Of a stretch of DNA of 64,000 bases, positions 39,001 through 45,000 are shown piece after piece. The position numbers were made by a program. This DNA is from a virus (taxonomy: Duplodnaviria; Heunggongvirae; Uroviricota; Caudoviricetes): IMG/VR virus record IMGVR_UViG_2684623127_000007. The stretch is one strand, 5' to 3'. Each line of letters begins with the position of its first letter. Position 1 is the stretch's first letter.

Positions 39001-42000
39001 CACCATACAAGAGAAGACAGCGTTGTGTTCAATGTACTGGATGTTGAATTCAGTTGCGGCGACGGAACTCATGTACGGGGAGATCTAATTGATGTAGTAC
39101 GCTCAATAGAACTTGATCCTGAATATGCCCGCCGCCTGGTCGGTAACAGAGCATTCAAGAACATAGAAATCGGTAACGCCAGAGGGGACAGCATGGCCCC
39201 AACAATCTCCCCGGGAGACTTACTGTTTTTAGATAAAACAGTAACTTACTTTGACGGCGATGGCATTTATGCATTTTGCTTTGATGGCGAATGTTACGTC
39301 AAACGACTTCAAAAAATTGGAAGCAAGATCATGGTCTTATCAGACAATCCCAACTATCAGCCATGGAGCATCGAAAAAGAGGGAATGGCGCTGCTCTATA
39401 TCCAGTCAAAAGTAATCTCATCTGTACCATTCAATATCAACAGATTTGGTTAGTTATTGATTTTAAATTAAATTATTGGTCATCCATCACAAAAAAAATC
39501 AAGTTTATCAATTTTTAATTGACAGTCGTTTTCCTGACACATAATATCTCACCATCAATTATATATTGATTAACTTCAACTTAGAATTGCATGGTGATGA
39601 TATGGAAGCCTTACAAACAACACCAAAAACATGTAGCCTCAATACTTACAACAAGGTTTTATGTGATGATTTAGATCTCGATTCTTTTGCATTAACCATC
39701 GCAAACCTGCTCAGTGCTGTTCGCACCTTCAACCTCCTAGATGATACGCGATTAAAAGAGGTTGGGTTTGATGTGCTAGAATTTACTCATGAATATGCTT
39801 TAGCGATCGCATCGACAAAACAACAACATTCTATCCGATCAGGCAACAAGATAGCCTGCATACGCACCAAACGTGAAGCCTGCGGCTTGACGACTACCGA
39901 ACTAGCCAGACTACTCGATCTTGACGAAGAGATTATTCTGCAATGGGAGAGTGGAGAGTTCGAGCCAACCATCAGCATGCTTATCCCCCTGGCAAACGTC
40001 CTGGGATGCGATCCGCTTTCTCTACTAAGTGAAAAAAACAGCGAGTCAGCTATTCGTGTAAATACGACTGAAGTCCATGCGGAAAGTATTGGCGCACGCA
40101 TCAAAAGCGCCCGTACAAAGCTGGGATTAACCGAATCTGATCTTGCCCGCATGATTCATACCTACAGTGACCCCATAAACGACTGGGAATGCGGCATCTG
40201 TGAAGTTCCTGCTGATCATATAGTACCACTGGCCAGTGCGCTTAATTGTGACCTGATGTGGTTGTTAACGGGAAAATCAGAAGCAAAGGAGCAGCAACAA
40301 TGACTGGCAATATCCATGATAAGTATGAAGGCTTATGCCTGGCACCGGATTCCTTTGCAAACAATATCCATAATTTATTATGCGCAGTTATCGTATTACA
40401 AATGTCAGACAACGACGCAATAAAAAGAACAGGTGATGAAGTTCTTGAATTTGTACGTTGCTATGCTGAAGCAGCAGCTGAAAAAGAACTATCCAGTTAA
40501 ATAGAACAAGTCATCTCCAGATACTATATTACGGCTTAATCGCCGGGGATTATCACACACTTAATCCACAGGAGGTTTTATTATGACTTTTATAAAACAT
40601 AAGGCATCACACAAAACAGCCTGCCTTATTGCACAACACGGGAAAAATCACATGCATATTGCCTGCTTGTTTCTGCGTAAAGCATACGGGAGATAATAAT
40701 GCATCAGAAAACAGCAGAACACGAACAAACCAGAGTATTGCTGACCATCAAAAACGGGAAAGTAATATTAATTCGTCATGTTCATGACGATGAATTTGTA
40801 GGAAATCTTTCAATATTCCTGTTTATTGCAGAAAAGGCAGGATATGACGTTATTGCACCAGCAGATGAAGATGAGGAATAAATTTCATGCAATACGCTGA
40901 ATTCCAGGCTGAAGCAACAGCCAATGGTATACAAACAGGCAGTATGACTATTGATTATCACGACGCCATACGCCGTCTGGATGCTGGAGAATTCGATACT
41001 CCTAATGTGCGAGGTTTACGTATCCTTCAGTGTCTCGCGCAAGCTGACGAAGCAGGATTACTGGGAAAACTTCCGGTTGAGATGAAGGTTGCCCAGTGGC
41101 GATGGTTGTATGTGACGACATTCATCAACGAAGAAGAAGACAAGAACGGCACAATTGATGTCCCGAATGAACACGGAACAACAGATCGCGCCGTAATATA
41201 TAACGGGAAGCATGGGGTTATGACGATATATCCCGGCCCCATTCGGTTTGCCTTACAGCAGTATATTGAATGGAATTTAATTCAAAAATACGGCGAGGCA
41301 GAAGGAATGGGTAGAGCGCTGTTTCTTTATCAGAAAATGCTCATTACATACCCAGATAAAGGTTTCATTGTTTCAGACATGGGGCGAGAAGGGCTTGAAC
41401 TCCTTCTGGATGAAATGATTAACGACCTGAATACTCATGGTATGCCAGAAGGCCAGTGACACATTAAATATTAAGAAGAATATAATTCTTCCGTTTTTTA
41501 CTAACCATTTATATGAAAAACAACCGTGAATTAAGCAGAGTAAAACTGCTTTTAATCCTTGCCACAGTACTGACAATAACAGAAATCATTATTCTCTTTA
41601 TTGCGCTGTCTGTCAGTTAAAAATATCGGGATACCACATACCAATGAGACTGTATTTCACAATAGTAATTTTACTGGCAATTATCGCATGCATTTACGGA
41701 TTACTCGTTCCGTTCCTTATATCCATGAAGGATACGATAGCAGTTACTTCTGGCTTTGCACTGGCGTTTCTGACCCCGCCCTGCATTTATGCCATTTACA
41801 AGGGTCTTTCTTTCACTAAGGATAAAAAATGAAAAAAATTATTTTTGCTTTAGCCATTGTTCTGCCGACCATTGGCCTTGTCGGCTGCGATCGCGTTGAA
41901 CCCGGTAATGTTGGCATCAAAGTAAATAAACTGGGCGACGATAAAGGCGTCGGTGAGGTGGTCGGTGTTGGTCGCTACTGGACTGGCTGGAATACTGAAG

Positions 42001-45000
42001 TTTACATCTTCCCAACCTTCAAACAAATGAAGACCTACGATGAGCCGTTCAGCTTCCAGATGAGTGACGGCACAACCATCGGCTATCACATCGGTGTTGC
42101 CTACAAAGTTGATCCATCCAAAGTTACCACGGTGTTTCAGACCTACCGCAAAGGCGTGGATGACATTACCGCCACTGACCTGCGCCAGAAGATCGCCGAC
42201 GCACTCAATCGACTGGCCAGCAAAATGACCACCGACAAATTTATCGACGGCGGCAAGTCTGAACTACTGGATGCCGCACTTAAAGACATTCAGGAAGAGA
42301 TGACCCCCATCGGCGTTCAGGTAATGAGCCTCTCTTATGTAGGTAAACCGGAATACCCGCCAACCGTTATCGACAGCATTAACGCCAAAGTCACGGCAAA
42401 CCAGAAAACCCTGCAGCGCGAACAGGAAGTCAAGCAACGTGAAGCGGAGGCCAACATGCTGCGTGCAGAAGCTGCCGGACAGGCTGATGCCATTCGAACA
42501 AAAGCCCTGGCAGAAGCCGATGCCATTCGTTTACGCGGCGAAGCTCTGCGCCAGAACCCTGGCGTCATGGAGCTGGAAGCCATCAACAAGTGGAACGGTA
42601 CACTGCCGCAATACATGACCAGTGGTGCCAATACACCATTTATCCAGATTAAATAACTTACACGCCCGGCAAACCGCCGGGTTAATGGAAAATCAGATGA
42701 ACAACCAGAATACTCAACCGCAAATAATGAACTATGACCCGAATCTGACGTCGTGCGGACGCATGGCAAAACAAACCGTTCGATTAACTTTCGGACTATG
42801 GGAATACCGCGAAACATTCGAAGTTACTGTCGGCGGCAATCTGACCGGACTGGATGTTATCAATTGCGCTATTGAAAGCCTGTACGCAACGCTGCCTTAT
42901 GAAGAAGTCCTGGATGAGCGCACAGGGAAAACGGATATCATGGCCACCATTAATATTGGCGAACTGATATGCCAGGATGAAGACCTGTCCGGGGAACTCT
43001 GGCTTGCCGGGATGCTTATCTCAGCAGAAATTATCAGCATTGAACCCGCTACAAACATACGGCTCTGAAGTTCTCACTATTCAGAGAGCAGGAGAAAAAA
43101 TGTTCGCTCTGATTAATCAGGGACAACTGTATACCGACAGTGCCGGTTACCCGGTAAAAATTGTTCGCTGCATAAACAACACCGTGTTGTACAGAAGATG
43201 TGAAGCGAATGTTTGAAGTGTGGTGCCACTGCCGTGGATGAAAGTTTTATGAGGTTGGCATGCAGACAATCATCTATCAGATAACCCCCAGCAAATGGTG
43301 TACGGAGAGAGTCCTCATTGCATCAACAGGGCTAAAGCCTGGCACCATCGAGCGAGCCAGAAGAAAGTCATGGATGCAGGGAAAAGAATACCGCCATTAC
43401 GCTGTAGAAGGTGATCCGGGGCATTACAGTGAATGCCTGTACAACATCGAAGAAATTATGCGATGGATCGAAAACCAGAAACAACCAGGTGCCAAAAATG
43501 CAAGTTCCGGTTAACCTGTTAATGCTCCTGGACGTCTGGGAGGTTTTATGAGTAACGCATCATACCCGACAGGCGTTGAAAACCATGGAGGATCACTCCG
43601 TATATGGTTTCACTATAATGGCAAACGTGTCAGAGAAAACCTCGGTGTTCCTGACACCGCCAAAAACCGGAAGATCGCTGGTGAGCTTCGCACTTCTGTT
43701 TGTTTTGCAATCAGAATGGGGAGTTTCGACTACGCCGCGCAGTTCCCTAATTCCCCTAACCTGAAACACTTTGGTCTGGGAAAAAGAGAGATAACCGTTA
43801 AGGCACTTTCGGAAAAATGGTTGGACCTTAAGAAAATTGAGATAGGAAGTAATGCATTCAGTCGGTATCAATCCGTGGTGAGAAACATGCTTCCTCGCAT
43901 AGGGGAAAAACGTCTTGCTTCGTCGGTAACAAAGGAAGATTTACTGTTTATCAGGAAAGATTTATTGACCGGGTATCATAATCTTTCTAACGGAAAAACA
44001 ACGCCGATTAAAGGGAGGTCAGTAGTTACGGTTAATTACTACATGACGACAATTGCAGGAATGTTTCAATTTGCGGCTGATAACGGCTATATCGTGTCAA
44101 ACCCATTTAACGGCCTGACACCATTAAAGAGATCCAGAACAGAACCAGATCCGCTCACACGTGACGAATTTATTCGTTTTATTGATGCCTGTCACCATCA
44201 ACAAACAAAAAACCTGTGGTCCTTAGCAGTATACACAGGCATTCGTCACGGTGAGCTAATATCTCTCGCCTGGGAGGATATTGATTTAAAAGCTAAAACA
44301 ATGACTATCCGTCGTAATTATACAAAACTCGGGGAGTTCACTCTACCAAAAACAGAAGCGGGAACTGATCGTGTTATTCATCTTGTTCAACCAGCTGTTG
44401 ATGCCCTGAAAAGCCAGGCTGAAATGACAAGACTTGGCCCTCAGTATCAAATTGACGTCAAGCTTCGGGAGTTCGGTCGCACCGCACGCCATGAATGCAC
44501 GTTTGTTTTTAATCCGCAACTGGTAAAAAAATGCCAGCAAGTCGGTCACCACTATAAAGCAGATTCCATCAGAGATTCCTGGGCATCTGCATTAAGGCGA
44601 GCAGGACTGCGGCACAGAAAAGCCTATCAGTCTAGGCATACTTATGCCTGCTGGGCATTATCGGCAGGAGCGAATCCAAGCTTCATAGCAAACCAAATGG
44701 GCCATGCAAATGCACAAATGGTATTCAACGTTTACGGAGCATGGATGAAAGATAACAATATCGGGCAAATAGAACTACTCAATAAGCAGTTGACGGAGAG
44801 TGTCCCATACATGCCCCATAGAGCCAGACTCTGAAATAATATCTTTAAATATCAGTTGTTTTAGTGGTAGTTGCCGTCACATTAACTGCATGACAGGGCT
44901 ATTTAAACAATCACTAAAAATCGCCCAAGAGCATTCTGTTTCTATAATGTATTCCAAGAGATTAAAAAATAATATCATACGTTATTCGGCAGAGTTCGTA

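What the first reader, a model, noticed from the sequence alone, without database searches (positions are those of the whole stretch)
41513..42656. Prophage-encoded SPFH/band-7 lipoprotein with small membrane-protein partners
A 275-aa lipoprotein with an SPFH-like core and coiled-coil tail is preceded by a 62-aa two-helix membrane protein whose stop overlaps its start, and by a 35-aa hydrophobic peptide. Host SPFH proteins HflK/C regulate FtsH, which degrades lambda CII/CIII, so a phage-borne SPFH protein could bias lysogeny or act as a membrane exclusion factor. This is speculative.
Basis: inference. Interest (0 to 1): 0.5.

Follow-up and report, generated by a model that had tools for sequence, protein, structure and literature searches.

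The report
Phage SPFH lipoprotein with two-helix partner
A Shiga-toxin-type E. coli prophage carries a two-gene cassette, found in many unrelated phages, that encodes a lipid-anchored SPFH (band-7) scaffold protein and a tiny two-helix membrane protein; its job is still unknown.

Summary
The 275-aa ORF (41829-42656) is an SPFH/Band-7 protein (Pfam 1e-30). It has a lipobox (LVGC, Asp+2), and its confident AlphaFold model matches HflC, HflK, prohibitin, erlin and stomatin cage subunits over its full length.

The 62-aa ORF (41644-41832; ATGA overlap) is a real partner. A homologous two-helix mini-protein lies next to the SPFH gene in 232 of 254 phage loci and 26 of 33 SPFH clusters. It is the only recurrent neighbour. 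It is naturally fused to the SPFH protein in two distant lineages.

The 35-aa ORF is not a partner. It travels with the upstream gene and is absent from 33 of 80 close loci that keep the pair.

The pair is a promoter-less mosaic cassette (41640-42656). It sits in a likely cI-controlled early-left operon between the repressor gene and xis/int.

It is not an HflK/C orthologue, and the partner is not NfeD. The cassette also occurs in virulent phages, which argues against a lysogeny-specific role.

Most likely it forms a periplasm-facing SPFH cage on the inner membrane, with the mini-protein supplying the transmembrane part. The target is unknown (FtsH or superinfection exclusion are candidates).

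The family is already annotated, and the held literature reports no tested phage-biology function. Moderate interest.

The parts
41644..41832 (+). 62-aa two-helix inner-membrane mini-protein, the cognate partner of the SPFH lipoprotein. Predicted N-in/C-in topology, with a short periplasmic turn carrying the family motif P23-x-L-I-S27 (VPFLISMKDT).
   Evidence: ORF. phrog_1130 at E 7e-23. Two hydrophobic segments. Pro invariant and Ser at least 90% conserved in the 14-sequence alignment; Pro in all 26 and Ser in 25 of 26 cluster representatives (my reading). Next to the SPFH gene in 232/254 loci and 26/33 clusters. Natural fusions P0002 and P0133. No Pfam, NCBIfam or PADLOC match.
41829..42656 (+). 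275-aa SPFH/Band-7 lipoprotein.
   Evidence: Pfam PF01145 at E 1.2e-30. phrog_200 'lipoprotein' at E 1.2e-112. AF2 pLDDT 85.6. Foldseek top hits are HflC, HflK, prohibitin, erlin, stomatin and flotillin, all probability 1.0.
41829..41832 (+). ATGA stop/start overlap, indicating translational coupling of the partner and SPFH genes.
   Evidence: Sequence. The same overlap or near-abutment occurs in 204 of 232 loci with a partner.
41829..41888 (+). Signal peptide with lipobox L-V-G-C. Cys20 is the lipidation site, and Asp21 at +2 is the E. coli inner-membrane retention signal.
   Evidence: Sequence. Cys20 is invariant in 11 phage homologues, including Staphylococcus and Caulobacter phages. The sorting rule comes from established knowledge, not a test here.
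41892..42452 (+). SPFH (Band 7) alpha/beta domain, residues 22-208.
   Evidence: Pfam envelope. Strands and helices 20-175 at pLDDT mostly above 88.
42360..42554 (+). Long helix (residues 178-242), equivalent to the coiled-coil wall of SPFH cages.
   Evidence: AF2 secondary structure. Full-length alignment to cage subunits.
42588..42608 (+). C-terminal family motif K254-W255-N-G257-T-L-P260 (KWNGxLP), invariant in the phage family. Candidate cage-cap or oligomerisation element.
   Evidence: Invariant columns. The motif lies in the low-pLDDT tail of the monomer model. The role is inferred.
41640..42656 (+). Extent of the mosaic cassette (partner + SPFH) exchanged among E. coli prophages.
   Evidence: Several prophage matches begin at query base 241 (window 41640) and end at base 1257 (window 42656). 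Upstream sequence is unrelated in L012 and L013.
41513..41620 (+). 35-aa hydrophobic ORF. It is a neighbour, not part of the module, and its coding status is unproven.
   Evidence: Open in 47 of 80 close loci and absent from 33 that keep the pair. Variable sites by codon position are 10/4/10. Present only where the 190-aa phrog_1515 gene is present. No family match and no Rfam match.
42664..42682 (+). G+C-rich hairpin 8 nt after the SPFH stop, with no U-tract. Possibly a transcript-end stabiliser.
   Evidence: -14.1 kcal/mol, z -2.47. Function not tested.
39495..39570 (+). Context: pL-like promoter (TTGACA-17-TAATAT, 39519-39547) flanked by palindromes TCAATTTTTAATTGA and ATCAATTATATATTGAT. 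Likely the start of the early-left operon that contains the cassette.
   Evidence: Promoter scan 10/12. Repeats, and the shared AAAATCAAGTT[A/T]AT with the cI/cro intergenic region. Repressor control is inferred.
38734..39453 (+). Context: CI-like repressor (HTH_3 + Peptidase_S24), same strand and upstream of the operon.
43260..44834 (+). Context: excisionase (43260-43514) and tyrosine integrase (43548-44834) downstream on the same strand.

Best explanation
The 62-aa and 275-aa genes form a self-contained two-gene phage cassette.

The 275-aa protein is exported, lipid-modified at Cys20 and, because of Asp at +2, probably kept in the outer leaflet of the inner membrane. Its SPFH domain and long helix therefore lie in the periplasm. 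HflK/C is the only E. coli SPFH complex with that orientation. Like every structurally solved SPFH protein with this architecture, it most likely assembles into a ring or cage sitting on the membrane.

The protein has no transmembrane segment of its own. The co-translated 62-aa protein (N-in/C-in, with a conserved periplasmic P-x-L-[IV]-S turn) would supply the membrane-spanning part at about 1:1 and dock under the SPFH domain. Together they would rebuild a 'split' version of a TM-anchored SPFH protein.

The cassette has no promoter of its own. In this prophage it probably rides the repressor-controlled early-left operon, so it would act early after infection or induction rather than in the quiescent lysogen.

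The cage would fence off a patch of inner membrane and the protein(s) in it. My best single guess for the target is the FtsH protease or its substrates, because FtsH is the one known client of a periplasmic SPFH cage. This would be a general host-takeover or membrane-protection device, not a lysogeny switch.

Shown here: the fold, the lipobox, gene coupling, co-occurrence, natural fusions, cassette borders and phage distribution.

Inferred: export and sorting, oligomerisation, partner docking, timing of expression and the target.
For: - SPFH identity and full-length cage-subunit architecture.
- Lipobox with Cys invariant across distant phages.
- Partner family with invariant Pro and near-invariant Ser at the turn between two helices.
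- ATGA coupling and adjacency in 232/254 loci and 26/33 clusters at 70% identity.
- The partner is the only neighbour family that recurs across clusters.
- Two independent natural fusions. P0002 (P1-like) was seen in two independent samples. P0133 shares 39% identity with it. In both, the SPFH signal peptide becomes a third helix, which fits a partner C-terminus in the cytoplasm and the SPFH domain in the periplasm.
- Cassette borders at 41640 and 42656 leave no room for a promoter.
- pL-like promoter with operator-like palindromes directly after the CI-like gene.
- The cassette sits in early or repressor-proximal operons of P2-like and Pseudomonas temperate phages and in early/middle regions of virulent phages.
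- Precedents: HflK/C cages enclosing FtsH, and QmcA-YbbJ cages of SPFH plus a membrane partner (PDB 7vhp, 7wi3, 8z5g; PMC13086221).
Against: - No oligomer, topology, expression or interaction was tested.
- The structure tool takes one chain only, so partner docking is unsupported by any model of the complex.
- Asp+2 followed by Arg may be a weaker retention signal, and other clades have S, G, N or Y at +2. Outer-membrane sorting is therefore not excluded.
- Similarity to HflK/C is no stronger than to QmcA or prohibitin, and nothing links the protein to FtsH.
- Distant homologues occur in haloarchaeal viruses, whose hosts, to my knowledge, lack FtsH.
- Seven of 33 clusters lack a detectable partner of this family. 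Some carry other small membrane ORFs instead.
- The locus sample is dominated by close relatives of the window (144 of 254).
- Repressor control of the 39519-39547 promoter rests on sequence motifs only. A related Pasteurella prophage SPFH protein was detected in ordinary cultures (PMC9872710), so lysogen expression is possible.
Confidence: 0.4

Rival explanations
1. Superinfection exclusion or envelope barrier. The periplasmic cage and its membrane partner would block DNA entry or periplasmic steps of later-arriving phages, functionally like T4 Imm (small two-helix protein) plus Sp (membrane-anchored periplasmic protein), P1 Sim or HK97 gp15.
For: - Periplasm-facing membrane proteins expressed from early or repressor-proximal operons.
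- Carried by both temperate and virulent phages, as exclusion genes are.
- Mosaic accessory cassette exchanged among prophages.
- PHROGs files the partner under 'moron, auxiliary metabolic gene and host takeover'.
Against: - No homology to any known exclusion or defence protein: PADLOC none, Pfam none for the partner.
- The 'superinfection exclusion protein' annotated near the SPFH gene of PhiSH19 is an acidic soluble protein two genes away, not the membrane neighbour.
- A cage covers only a small membrane patch, so it would have to sequester a specific entry factor.
Confidence: 0.25
2. Membrane stabilisation or lysis-timing control. The cage would protect inner-membrane integrity or proton-motive force during infection, or sequester or chaperone phage membrane proteins such as holins until the proper time.
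For: - Cellular SPFH proteins act in membrane stress and protein stabilisation (PMC8581546 listed; S. aureus FloA-NfeD, cited in PMC13086221).
- In Kayvirus the SPFH gene mbpS follows a holin-like single-helix gene mbpV between lysK and tgl (PMC7150955).
- The partner has the size and two-helix layout of class II holins. One UniRef name for a homologue is 'Holin'.
Against: - In this prophage and most Gram-negative phages the cassette lies among early genes, not in a lysis cassette.
- The 'Holin' name is an automatic label.
- The conserved motif lies in the periplasmic turn rather than in the helices.
Confidence: 0.15
3. Lysogeny bias through HflK/C mimicry. The phage protein would replace or compete with HflK/C, change FtsH activity on CII/CIII-like regulators, and so shift the lysis-lysogeny decision.
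For: - Same predicted side of the membrane as HflK/C.
- The best structural matches include HflC and HflK.
- It lies in the early-left operon next to xis/int.
- The same speculation has been published for Pseudomonas phages (PMC8540360).
Against: - Fails the HflK and HflC equivalog models by more than 100 bits.
- It is a single gene rather than a K/C pair, and has a lipid anchor rather than a TM anchor.
- Equally similar to QmcA and prohibitin.
- Present in obligately lytic phage groups, and PMC8540360 itself notes this.
Confidence: 0.1
4. Lysogenic-conversion surface or vesicle lipoprotein that acts on the animal host. A prophage-encoded HflK/C-like protein, PM0222 of Pasteurella multocida, is found in outer-membrane vesicles, activates TLR1/2 and contributes to virulence.
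For: PMC9872710. The window's element belongs to EHEC-type Stx prophages.
Against: - Homology of PM0222 to this family was not tested.
- The cassette is common in virulent phages and environmental viral contigs.
- Asp+2 predicts inner-membrane retention.
- Any lipoprotein can trigger TLR2.
Confidence: 0.05

Closest known systems
HflK/HflC-FtsH complex of E. coli (PDB 7vhp, 7wi3, 9cz2)
   Same: SPFH domain plus a long helix. Predicted periplasmic orientation on the inner membrane. Top Foldseek matches (E 5e-14 and 8e-14).
   Different: - 16-18% identity.
- Far below the HflK and HflC equivalog cut-offs.
- One SPFH gene instead of a K/C pair.
- Lipid anchor instead of an N-terminal TM helix.
- Own C-terminal KWNGxLP motif.
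- No evidence of FtsH binding.
SPFH-NfeD operons, e.g. QmcA-YbbJ (PDB 8z5g) and archaeal stomatin PH1511-PH1510
   Same: An SPFH gene co-transcribed with a small membrane-protein gene. The precedent is a cage built from SPFH plus partner heterodimers (PMC13086221). QmcA is the best profile-to-PDB sequence match (E 1e-6).
   Different: - The partner has no NfeD/OB-fold domain. It is only two helices and a turn, with no Pfam match.
- The gene order is partner first, with an ATGA overlap.
- The cage would face the periplasm, not the cytoplasm.
- Phage-borne.
PHROG families phrog_200 ('lipoprotein') and phrog_1130 ('membrane protein'); RefSeq 'SPFH domain-containing protein' WP_000720006.1
   Same: Direct members (E 1.2e-112 and 7.3e-23).
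   Different: These are annotation bins without a function. The pairing of the two families is not recorded in the names, and I found no paper describing it.
Kayvirus MbpV-MbpS and Vi01-like phage SPFH lipoproteins
   Same: A distant SPFH lipoprotein (22-24% identity) directly preceded by a small membrane-protein gene.
   Different: The upstream proteins belong to other families: MbpV has a single helix plus a charged tail, and the PhiSH19 ORF has a basic loop between its helices. The Kayvirus pair sits between lysis genes.
T4 Imm and Sp (superinfection exclusion)
   Same: A small two-helix membrane protein plus a membrane-anchored periplasmic protein, made early by the phage. This is a functional analogy from my own knowledge.
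   Different: No sequence or fold relationship was found. Imm and Sp are not an SPFH system and are not a coupled gene pair.

Membership tests
SPFH / Band 7 superfamily (Pfam PF01145, CL0433) | Band_7 domain HMM above the gathering score | tested here: met
   107.3 bits against a cut-off of 23.6, E 1.2e-30, profile positions 2-176 of 176.
SPFH / Band 7 superfamily (Pfam PF01145, CL0433) | SPFH alpha/beta fold followed by a long helix, as in cage-forming members | tested here: met
   AF2 pLDDT 85.6. Foldseek probability 1.0 to HflC, HflK, PHB1/2, erlin, stomatin, flotillin and QmcA.
SPFH / Band 7 superfamily (Pfam PF01145, CL0433) | Homo- or hetero-oligomeric ring or cage on a membrane | not testable with these tools
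   Only single chains can be modelled. Inferred from solved relatives.
HflK / HflC (FtsH modulators) | Score above the NCBIfam equivalog cut-offs TIGR01933 and TIGR01932 | tested here: not met
   HflC 22.8 bits against 134.4. HflK 19.6 bits against 159.4.
HflK / HflC (FtsH modulators) | Two paralogous SPFH genes (hflK-hflC), each with an N-terminal TM anchor | tested here: not met
   A single SPFH gene with a lipobox signal peptide. The neighbours are not SPFH proteins.
HflK / HflC (FtsH modulators) | Physical complex with FtsH and an effect on its substrates | not testable with these tools
   Needs pull-downs and substrate half-life assays.
SPFH-NfeD operon | Partner carries an NfeD domain (PF01957, C-terminal OB fold) | tested here: not met
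   No Pfam match for the 62-aa or 35-aa proteins at E <= 0.1. Precomputed Pfam is '-' for all 91 partner homologues. At 62 aa there is no room for an OB fold.
SPFH-NfeD operon | Co-directional, adjacent membrane-protein gene conserved with the SPFH gene | tested here: met
   232/254 loci and 26/33 clusters, mostly overlapping. Natural fusions.
Bacterial lipoprotein (signal peptidase II substrate) | Basic n-region, hydrophobic h-region, lipobox [LVI][ASTVI][GAS]C | tested here: met
   MKK-IIFALAIVLPTIG-LVGC. The Cys is invariant in 11 diverse homologues. Lipidation itself was not tested.
PHROG phrog_200 + phrog_1130 pair | HMM matches to both families in adjacent genes | tested here: met
   E 1.2e-112 and 7.3e-23.
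Class II holin (considered for the 62-aa protein) | Small two-TMD protein encoded in a lysis cassette next to an endolysin | tested here: not met
   Two TMDs, yes. But the neighbours are early-left genes, DUF5406, xis and int, and there is no holin family match.
Moron (autonomous promoter-gene-terminator insert) | Own promoter inside the exchanged unit | tested here: not met
   The unit begins 4 nt before the partner ATG. No convincing promoter in 41460-41643. The downstream hairpin lacks a U-tract.
Known anti-phage defence / exclusion proteins | Match to a PADLOC model | tested here: not met
   No match for any of five proteins.

The most novel reading that the evidence does not exclude
The cassette defines a widespread, so far undescribed phage organelle-like device. 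It would be a 'split' SPFH cage (lipid-anchored wall plus a two-helix mini-protein as its membrane fence) that phages of many families build on the periplasmic face of the host inner membrane early in infection. Its purpose would be to imprison a specific host membrane machine (FtsH or a DNA-entry factor). That would either rewire membrane proteolysis or shut the door on competing phages.
Probability: 0.2. Interest if true: 0.7.

Novelty: new variant of a known kind. Interest (0 to 1): 0.4.

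Why it matters
SPFH genes have been noticed in phage genomes since 2006 (PMC1524935). A 2026 paper still says the reason 'remains unclear' (PMC13239085).

About 1.4% of deposited phage genomes (717 of 50,697) and about 10% of complete E. coli genomes (536 of 5,426) carry a relative of this gene. These include Shiga-toxin prophages and P1-like plasmids.

The protein comes with a dedicated two-helix partner, as a promoter-less cassette in early operons. That turns a vague annotation into a defined two-protein system that can be cloned, purified and tested. If it cages FtsH or blocks superinfection, it would be a new way for viruses to compartmentalise a host membrane. If not, it is one more accessory membrane protein.

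Tried and rejected
1. NfeD identity of the small proteins: no Pfam match at E <= 0.1.
2. Defence-system identity: PADLOC gave no match.
3. HflK/C orthology: equivalog scores are far below the cut-offs. The profile search against PDB sequences does not favour HflK/C over QmcA or prohibitin.
4. The 35-aa ORF as a third component: rejected. No RNA family in 41300-41900 either.
5. Terminator after the 190-aa gene: the hairpin at 41475-41491 is weak (-4.9 kcal/mol, z -0.71), so it was dropped.
6. Own promoter for the cassette: none convincing in 41460-41643. The + strand hit at 41656-41684 lies inside the 62-aa ORF.
7. A third conserved neighbour: clustering all flanking ORFs found only the partner. 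The other recurrent 'families' were out-of-frame ORFs inside the SPFH gene.
8. Modelling the complex: the structure tool takes one chain. A combined alignment with partner rows (A6) was misaligned by MAFFT onto the signal peptide and was discarded. The natural fusion P0002 was modelled instead, but no contact or PAE output is given, so it supports only the helix count and order.
9. Link to the 'superinfection exclusion protein' annotated next to the SPFH gene in PhiSH19: that protein is acidic and soluble and is not the adjacent membrane ORF.
10. Comparison of the partner with the prophage's own holin failed. The window is not collinear with NZ_AP018488 around 24-26 kb.
11. The first viral-contig scan returned only close relatives. 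It was repeated with distant first sequences.
12. Eight literature searches of the ten allowed (seven of them on phage SPFH function) found no tested phage-biology function, only speculation. The one experimental study is the Pasteurella virulence paper PMC9872710, whose protein was not shown to belong to this family.

Full report
**What is in the sequence**

The window holds the three ORFs exactly as described:
- 35 aa at 41513-41620
- 62 aa at 41644-41832
- 275 aa at 41829-42656

The 62-aa stop and the 275-aa start overlap as ATGA. The stretch 41400-42750 is 100% identical to prophage DNA of E. coli O157:H7, O145:H28, O111 and O26 strains. RefSeq annotates the two larger ORFs there, the big one as 'SPFH domain-containing protein'. 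The protein is also 100% identical to a translated stretch of an Stx2a-converting phage genome.

On the same strand, the window's own gene order runs as follows:
- a Cro-like gene at 38374-38631 on the minus strand
- a CI-like repressor at 38734-39453 (HTH_3 + Peptidase_S24)
- an HTH protein at 39566-40303
- small ORFs
- a 190-aa phrog_1515 gene at 40887-41459
- the 35-aa ORF, the 62-aa gene and the SPFH gene
- DUF5406 (Pfam match tested on 42688-43068; homologous RefSeq CDS maps to about 42697-43068)
- excisionase at 43260-43514
- integrase at 43548-44834

**The 275-aa protein**

- It matches Pfam Band_7 over the whole profile (E 1.2e-30) and phrog_200 'lipoprotein' (E 1.2e-112).
- It begins MKKIIFALAIVLPTIGLVGC-D, a textbook lipobox. 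The Cys is invariant in an alignment that reaches Staphylococcus and Caulobacter phage homologues.
- By the established E. coli +2 rule, Asp after the Cys predicts retention in the inner membrane, so the SPFH domain would be periplasmic. This is inference. The Arg at +3 and the different +2 residues in other clades are caveats.
- An AlphaFold2 model built from 100 homologues is confident (pLDDT 85.6). It shows an alpha/beta domain at 20-175, a 65-residue helix at 178-242, a short helix and a floppy tail.
- Foldseek aligns the model along its full length to HflC and HflK (E 5e-14 and 8e-14), prohibitin, erlin, stomatin, flotillin and QmcA cage subunits, all at probability 1.0.

The protein is not an HflK or HflC orthologue. 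The equivalog models score 19.6 and 22.8 bits against cut-offs of 159.4 and 134.4. A family profile matches QmcA (1e-6), HflK (2e-5), HflC (4e-5) and prohibitin (7e-5) about equally weakly.

The family has its own invariant C-terminal motif, KWNGxLP. It lies in the tail, the region that closes the top of the cage in solved SPFH complexes. Its role here is inferred.

**The 62-aa protein is a real partner**

It has two hydrophobic helices and basic ends, which suggests N-in/C-in by the positive-inside rule (inference). It matches phrog_1130 (E 7e-23).

A small homologous ORF lies directly upstream of the SPFH gene in very different phages:
- N4-like Klebsiella phage MY01
- rV5-like Cronobacter phage GAP31
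- temperate Pseudomonas phage 5400
- Bruynoghevirus-like phage Clew-3
- P1-like RCS47, Burkholderia phage RY3 and a P2-like E. coli prophage, where the ORF is unannotated

I collected 254 loci from three viral-contig scans plus the annotated phages and prophages. I called the SPFH gene in each and searched flanking ORFs with an iterated HMM of the partner. The results:
- 232 of 254 loci and 26 of 33 SPFH clusters (70% identity) have it.
- In 204 of the 232, it overlaps the SPFH start or ends within 60 nt of it.
- Its helices vary freely. A Pro is present in all 26 cluster representatives and a Ser four residues later in 25 of 26. Both lie at the turn between the helices.
- Clustering all flanking ORFs shows no other family that recurs.

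Two proteins from the large database are natural fusions of partner and SPFH:
- P0002: 347 aa, from a P1-like 94-kb contig, seen in two independent samples.
- P0133: 355 aa, from a metagenome, only 39% identical to P0002.

In both, the SPFH signal peptide is kept as a third helix. The AlphaFold model of P0002 gives helix 6-37, turn 38-42, helix 43-64, helix 74-89 and then the SPFH domain. That order is what one expects if the partner's C-terminus is cytoplasmic and the SPFH domain periplasmic.

The sample is biased: 144 of the 254 loci are close relatives of the window. The cluster count is therefore the fairer figure.

**The 35-aa ORF is not a partner**

- It is open in 47 of 80 close loci but absent from 33 that keep the pair.
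- Its variable sites fall 10/4/10 on the three codon positions, so there is little sign of purifying selection on a protein.
- It occurs only where the upstream 190-aa gene occurs (47 of 51) and never without it.
- It has no visible Shine-Dalgarno sequence (my reading) and no family match.
- The region matches no Rfam family.

It may or may not be translated. Either way it belongs to the neighbouring mosaic block.

**The pair is a mosaic cassette without its own promoter**

Several E. coli prophages match the window only from base 41640, which is 4 nt before the partner ATG, to 42656, the SPFH stop. Upstream and downstream genes there are unrelated.

No convincing promoter lies in 41460-41643. 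The hairpin after the 190-aa gene is weak. A stable G+C hairpin follows the SPFH stop but has no U-tract.

Immediately after the CI-like gene there is a strong promoter-like site: TTGACA-17-TAATAT at 39519-39547. It is bracketed by two palindromes and shares a 14-nt motif with the cI/cro intergenic region. I read this as a pL-type, repressor-controlled promoter driving the leftward early operon through the cassette to xis and int. This is inference from motifs.

The same placement is seen elsewhere:
- downstream of cI in Pseudomonas phage 5400
- in the cox-to-A early operon of a P2-like prophage
- among early/middle DNA-metabolism genes in virulent phages

**How it most likely works**

All solved SPFH proteins with this architecture form rings or cages on a membrane. 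HflK/C cages enclose FtsH on the periplasmic side. QmcA and its membrane partner YbbJ form a cage of 26 heterodimers (PMC13086221; PDB entries).

The phage protein has only a lipid anchor. The partner is made in step with it (ATGA coupling, and fusions at exactly 1:1). I therefore propose that the mini-protein supplies the transmembrane fence and docks through its conserved periplasmic turn. The two genes would then encode a split, periplasm-facing SPFH cage made early in the lytic programme.

What the cage encloses is unknown. FtsH is the best-precedented client, and I rank it first only for that reason. Superinfection exclusion, and membrane protection or lysis timing, are serious rivals.

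The cassette is common in obligately lytic phage groups, a point already made in PMC8540360.

**Comparison with what is known**

The gene family is known and annotated (RefSeq, PHROGs). Phage SPFH genes have been listed since 2006 (PMC1524935). Published comments are all speculative:
- an HflK/C-like lysogeny role (PMC8540360)
- raft-assisted secretion of a lytic enzyme in Kayvirus (PMC7150955)
- adsorption or DNA entry (PMC13239085, which says the reason for its presence 'remains unclear')
- a moron or virulence factor (PMC5834331)

The one experimental study concerns a Pasteurella prophage 'HflK/C-like' protein found in vesicles, which activates TLR1/2 (PMC9872710). I could not test whether it belongs to this family.

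Seven of the eight full-text searches I ran (ten were allowed) concerned phage SPFH function. None found a description of the conserved two-helix partner, the fusions or the cassette structure, and none reported a tested function in phage biology. The library does not cover most subscription journals, so this absence is not proof.

**Verdict**

I class it as a new variant of a known kind: an SPFH-plus-partner operon with a lipid-anchored, periplasmic SPFH protein and a non-NfeD mini-partner, carried by phages.

Interest is moderate (0.4). Nothing here overturns expectations, but a common and long-unexplained phage gene now has a defined two-protein unit and clear experiments.

Noticed in passing
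L002 2284-2520; L006 2352-2501; L014 2750-2953; L259 1932-2150 (minus strand): Small membrane-protein ORFs directly upstream of, and overlapping, SPFH lipoprotein genes are missing from the deposited annotations of phage RCS47, Burkholderia phage vB_RY3, a P2-like E. coli prophage and Salmonella phage PhiSH19. The PhiSH19 ORF has a basic loop between its helices and does not belong to the partner family.
   Followed up: partly
P0002 (L255 3001-4044) compared with L002 2490-2525; window 41818-41845: The P0002 fusion of partner and SPFH protein looks like a one-base change in the run of A's at the gene junction (RCS47 has ...GAAAAAAACG...). The window has A6-TG-A7 at its junction. Close relatives end the partner with KDKR and lack the run, so programmed frameshifting seems unlikely, but it was not examined.
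   Followed up: partly
window 39495-39570 and 38655-38730: Operator-like repeats (ATCAAGAATAC / ATCAAGAATAA, AAAATCAAGTT[A/T]AT, and palindromes TCAATTTTTAATTGA and ATCAATTATATATTGAT) occur on both sides of the CI-like repressor gene. They suggest oR- and oL-type operator sets for this immunity type.
   Followed up: partly
window 24000-26500: The window is not collinear with NZ_AP018488 (strain PV15-279) in this stretch. The holin, lysozyme and lysis genes annotated there are not found at the corresponding window coordinates. The window's prophage therefore has a different late region from the record that matches 41400-42750 perfectly.
   Followed up: no
(RCS47 p0073, Ccr2 gp175c, Erwinia phage Pastis, Burkholderia pseudomallei entries): Members of this SPFH lipoprotein family are variously named 'putative serine protease', 'bacteriophage/transposase fusion protein' and 'high frequency of lysogenization C protein' in public records. 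None of these names is supported by the domain content seen here.
   Followed up: partly
L002 1480-3431 (phage RCS47): In P1-like RCS47 the cassette lies between plp/upl and a tRNA-Met gene upstream of the replicative helicase gene. From memory, phage P1 carries the tciABC genes (tellurite/colicin resistance or phage inhibition) at that position, which would make this an accessory-gene slot. Not checked against a P1 record.
   Followed up: no
L255 4729-5304: A Tad2-like gene (anti-Thoeris family by Pfam name) lies about 700 bp downstream of the fused partner-SPFH gene on a P1-like contig.
   Followed up: no
window 43100-43204: By homology to the annotated record, a truncated DUF4222 gene remnant lies between DUF5406 and the excisionase gene. 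Related prophages carry the full-length gene (243 bp) plus two further small ORFs there.
   Followed up: no
window 42664-42682: A stable G+C hairpin (GCCCGGC-AAACC-GCCGGGU, -14.1 kcal/mol, z -2.47) sits 8 nt after the SPFH stop with no U-tract. Some prophages that share the cassette lose homology just before it.
   Followed up: partly
window 41616-41588 (minus strand): A promoter-like site (CTGACA-17-AATAAT, 10 of 12) lies on the opposite strand inside the 35-aa ORF, pointing away from the cassette. The number of promoter-like sites in the region is below the shuffled expectation, so it may be chance.
   Followed up: no
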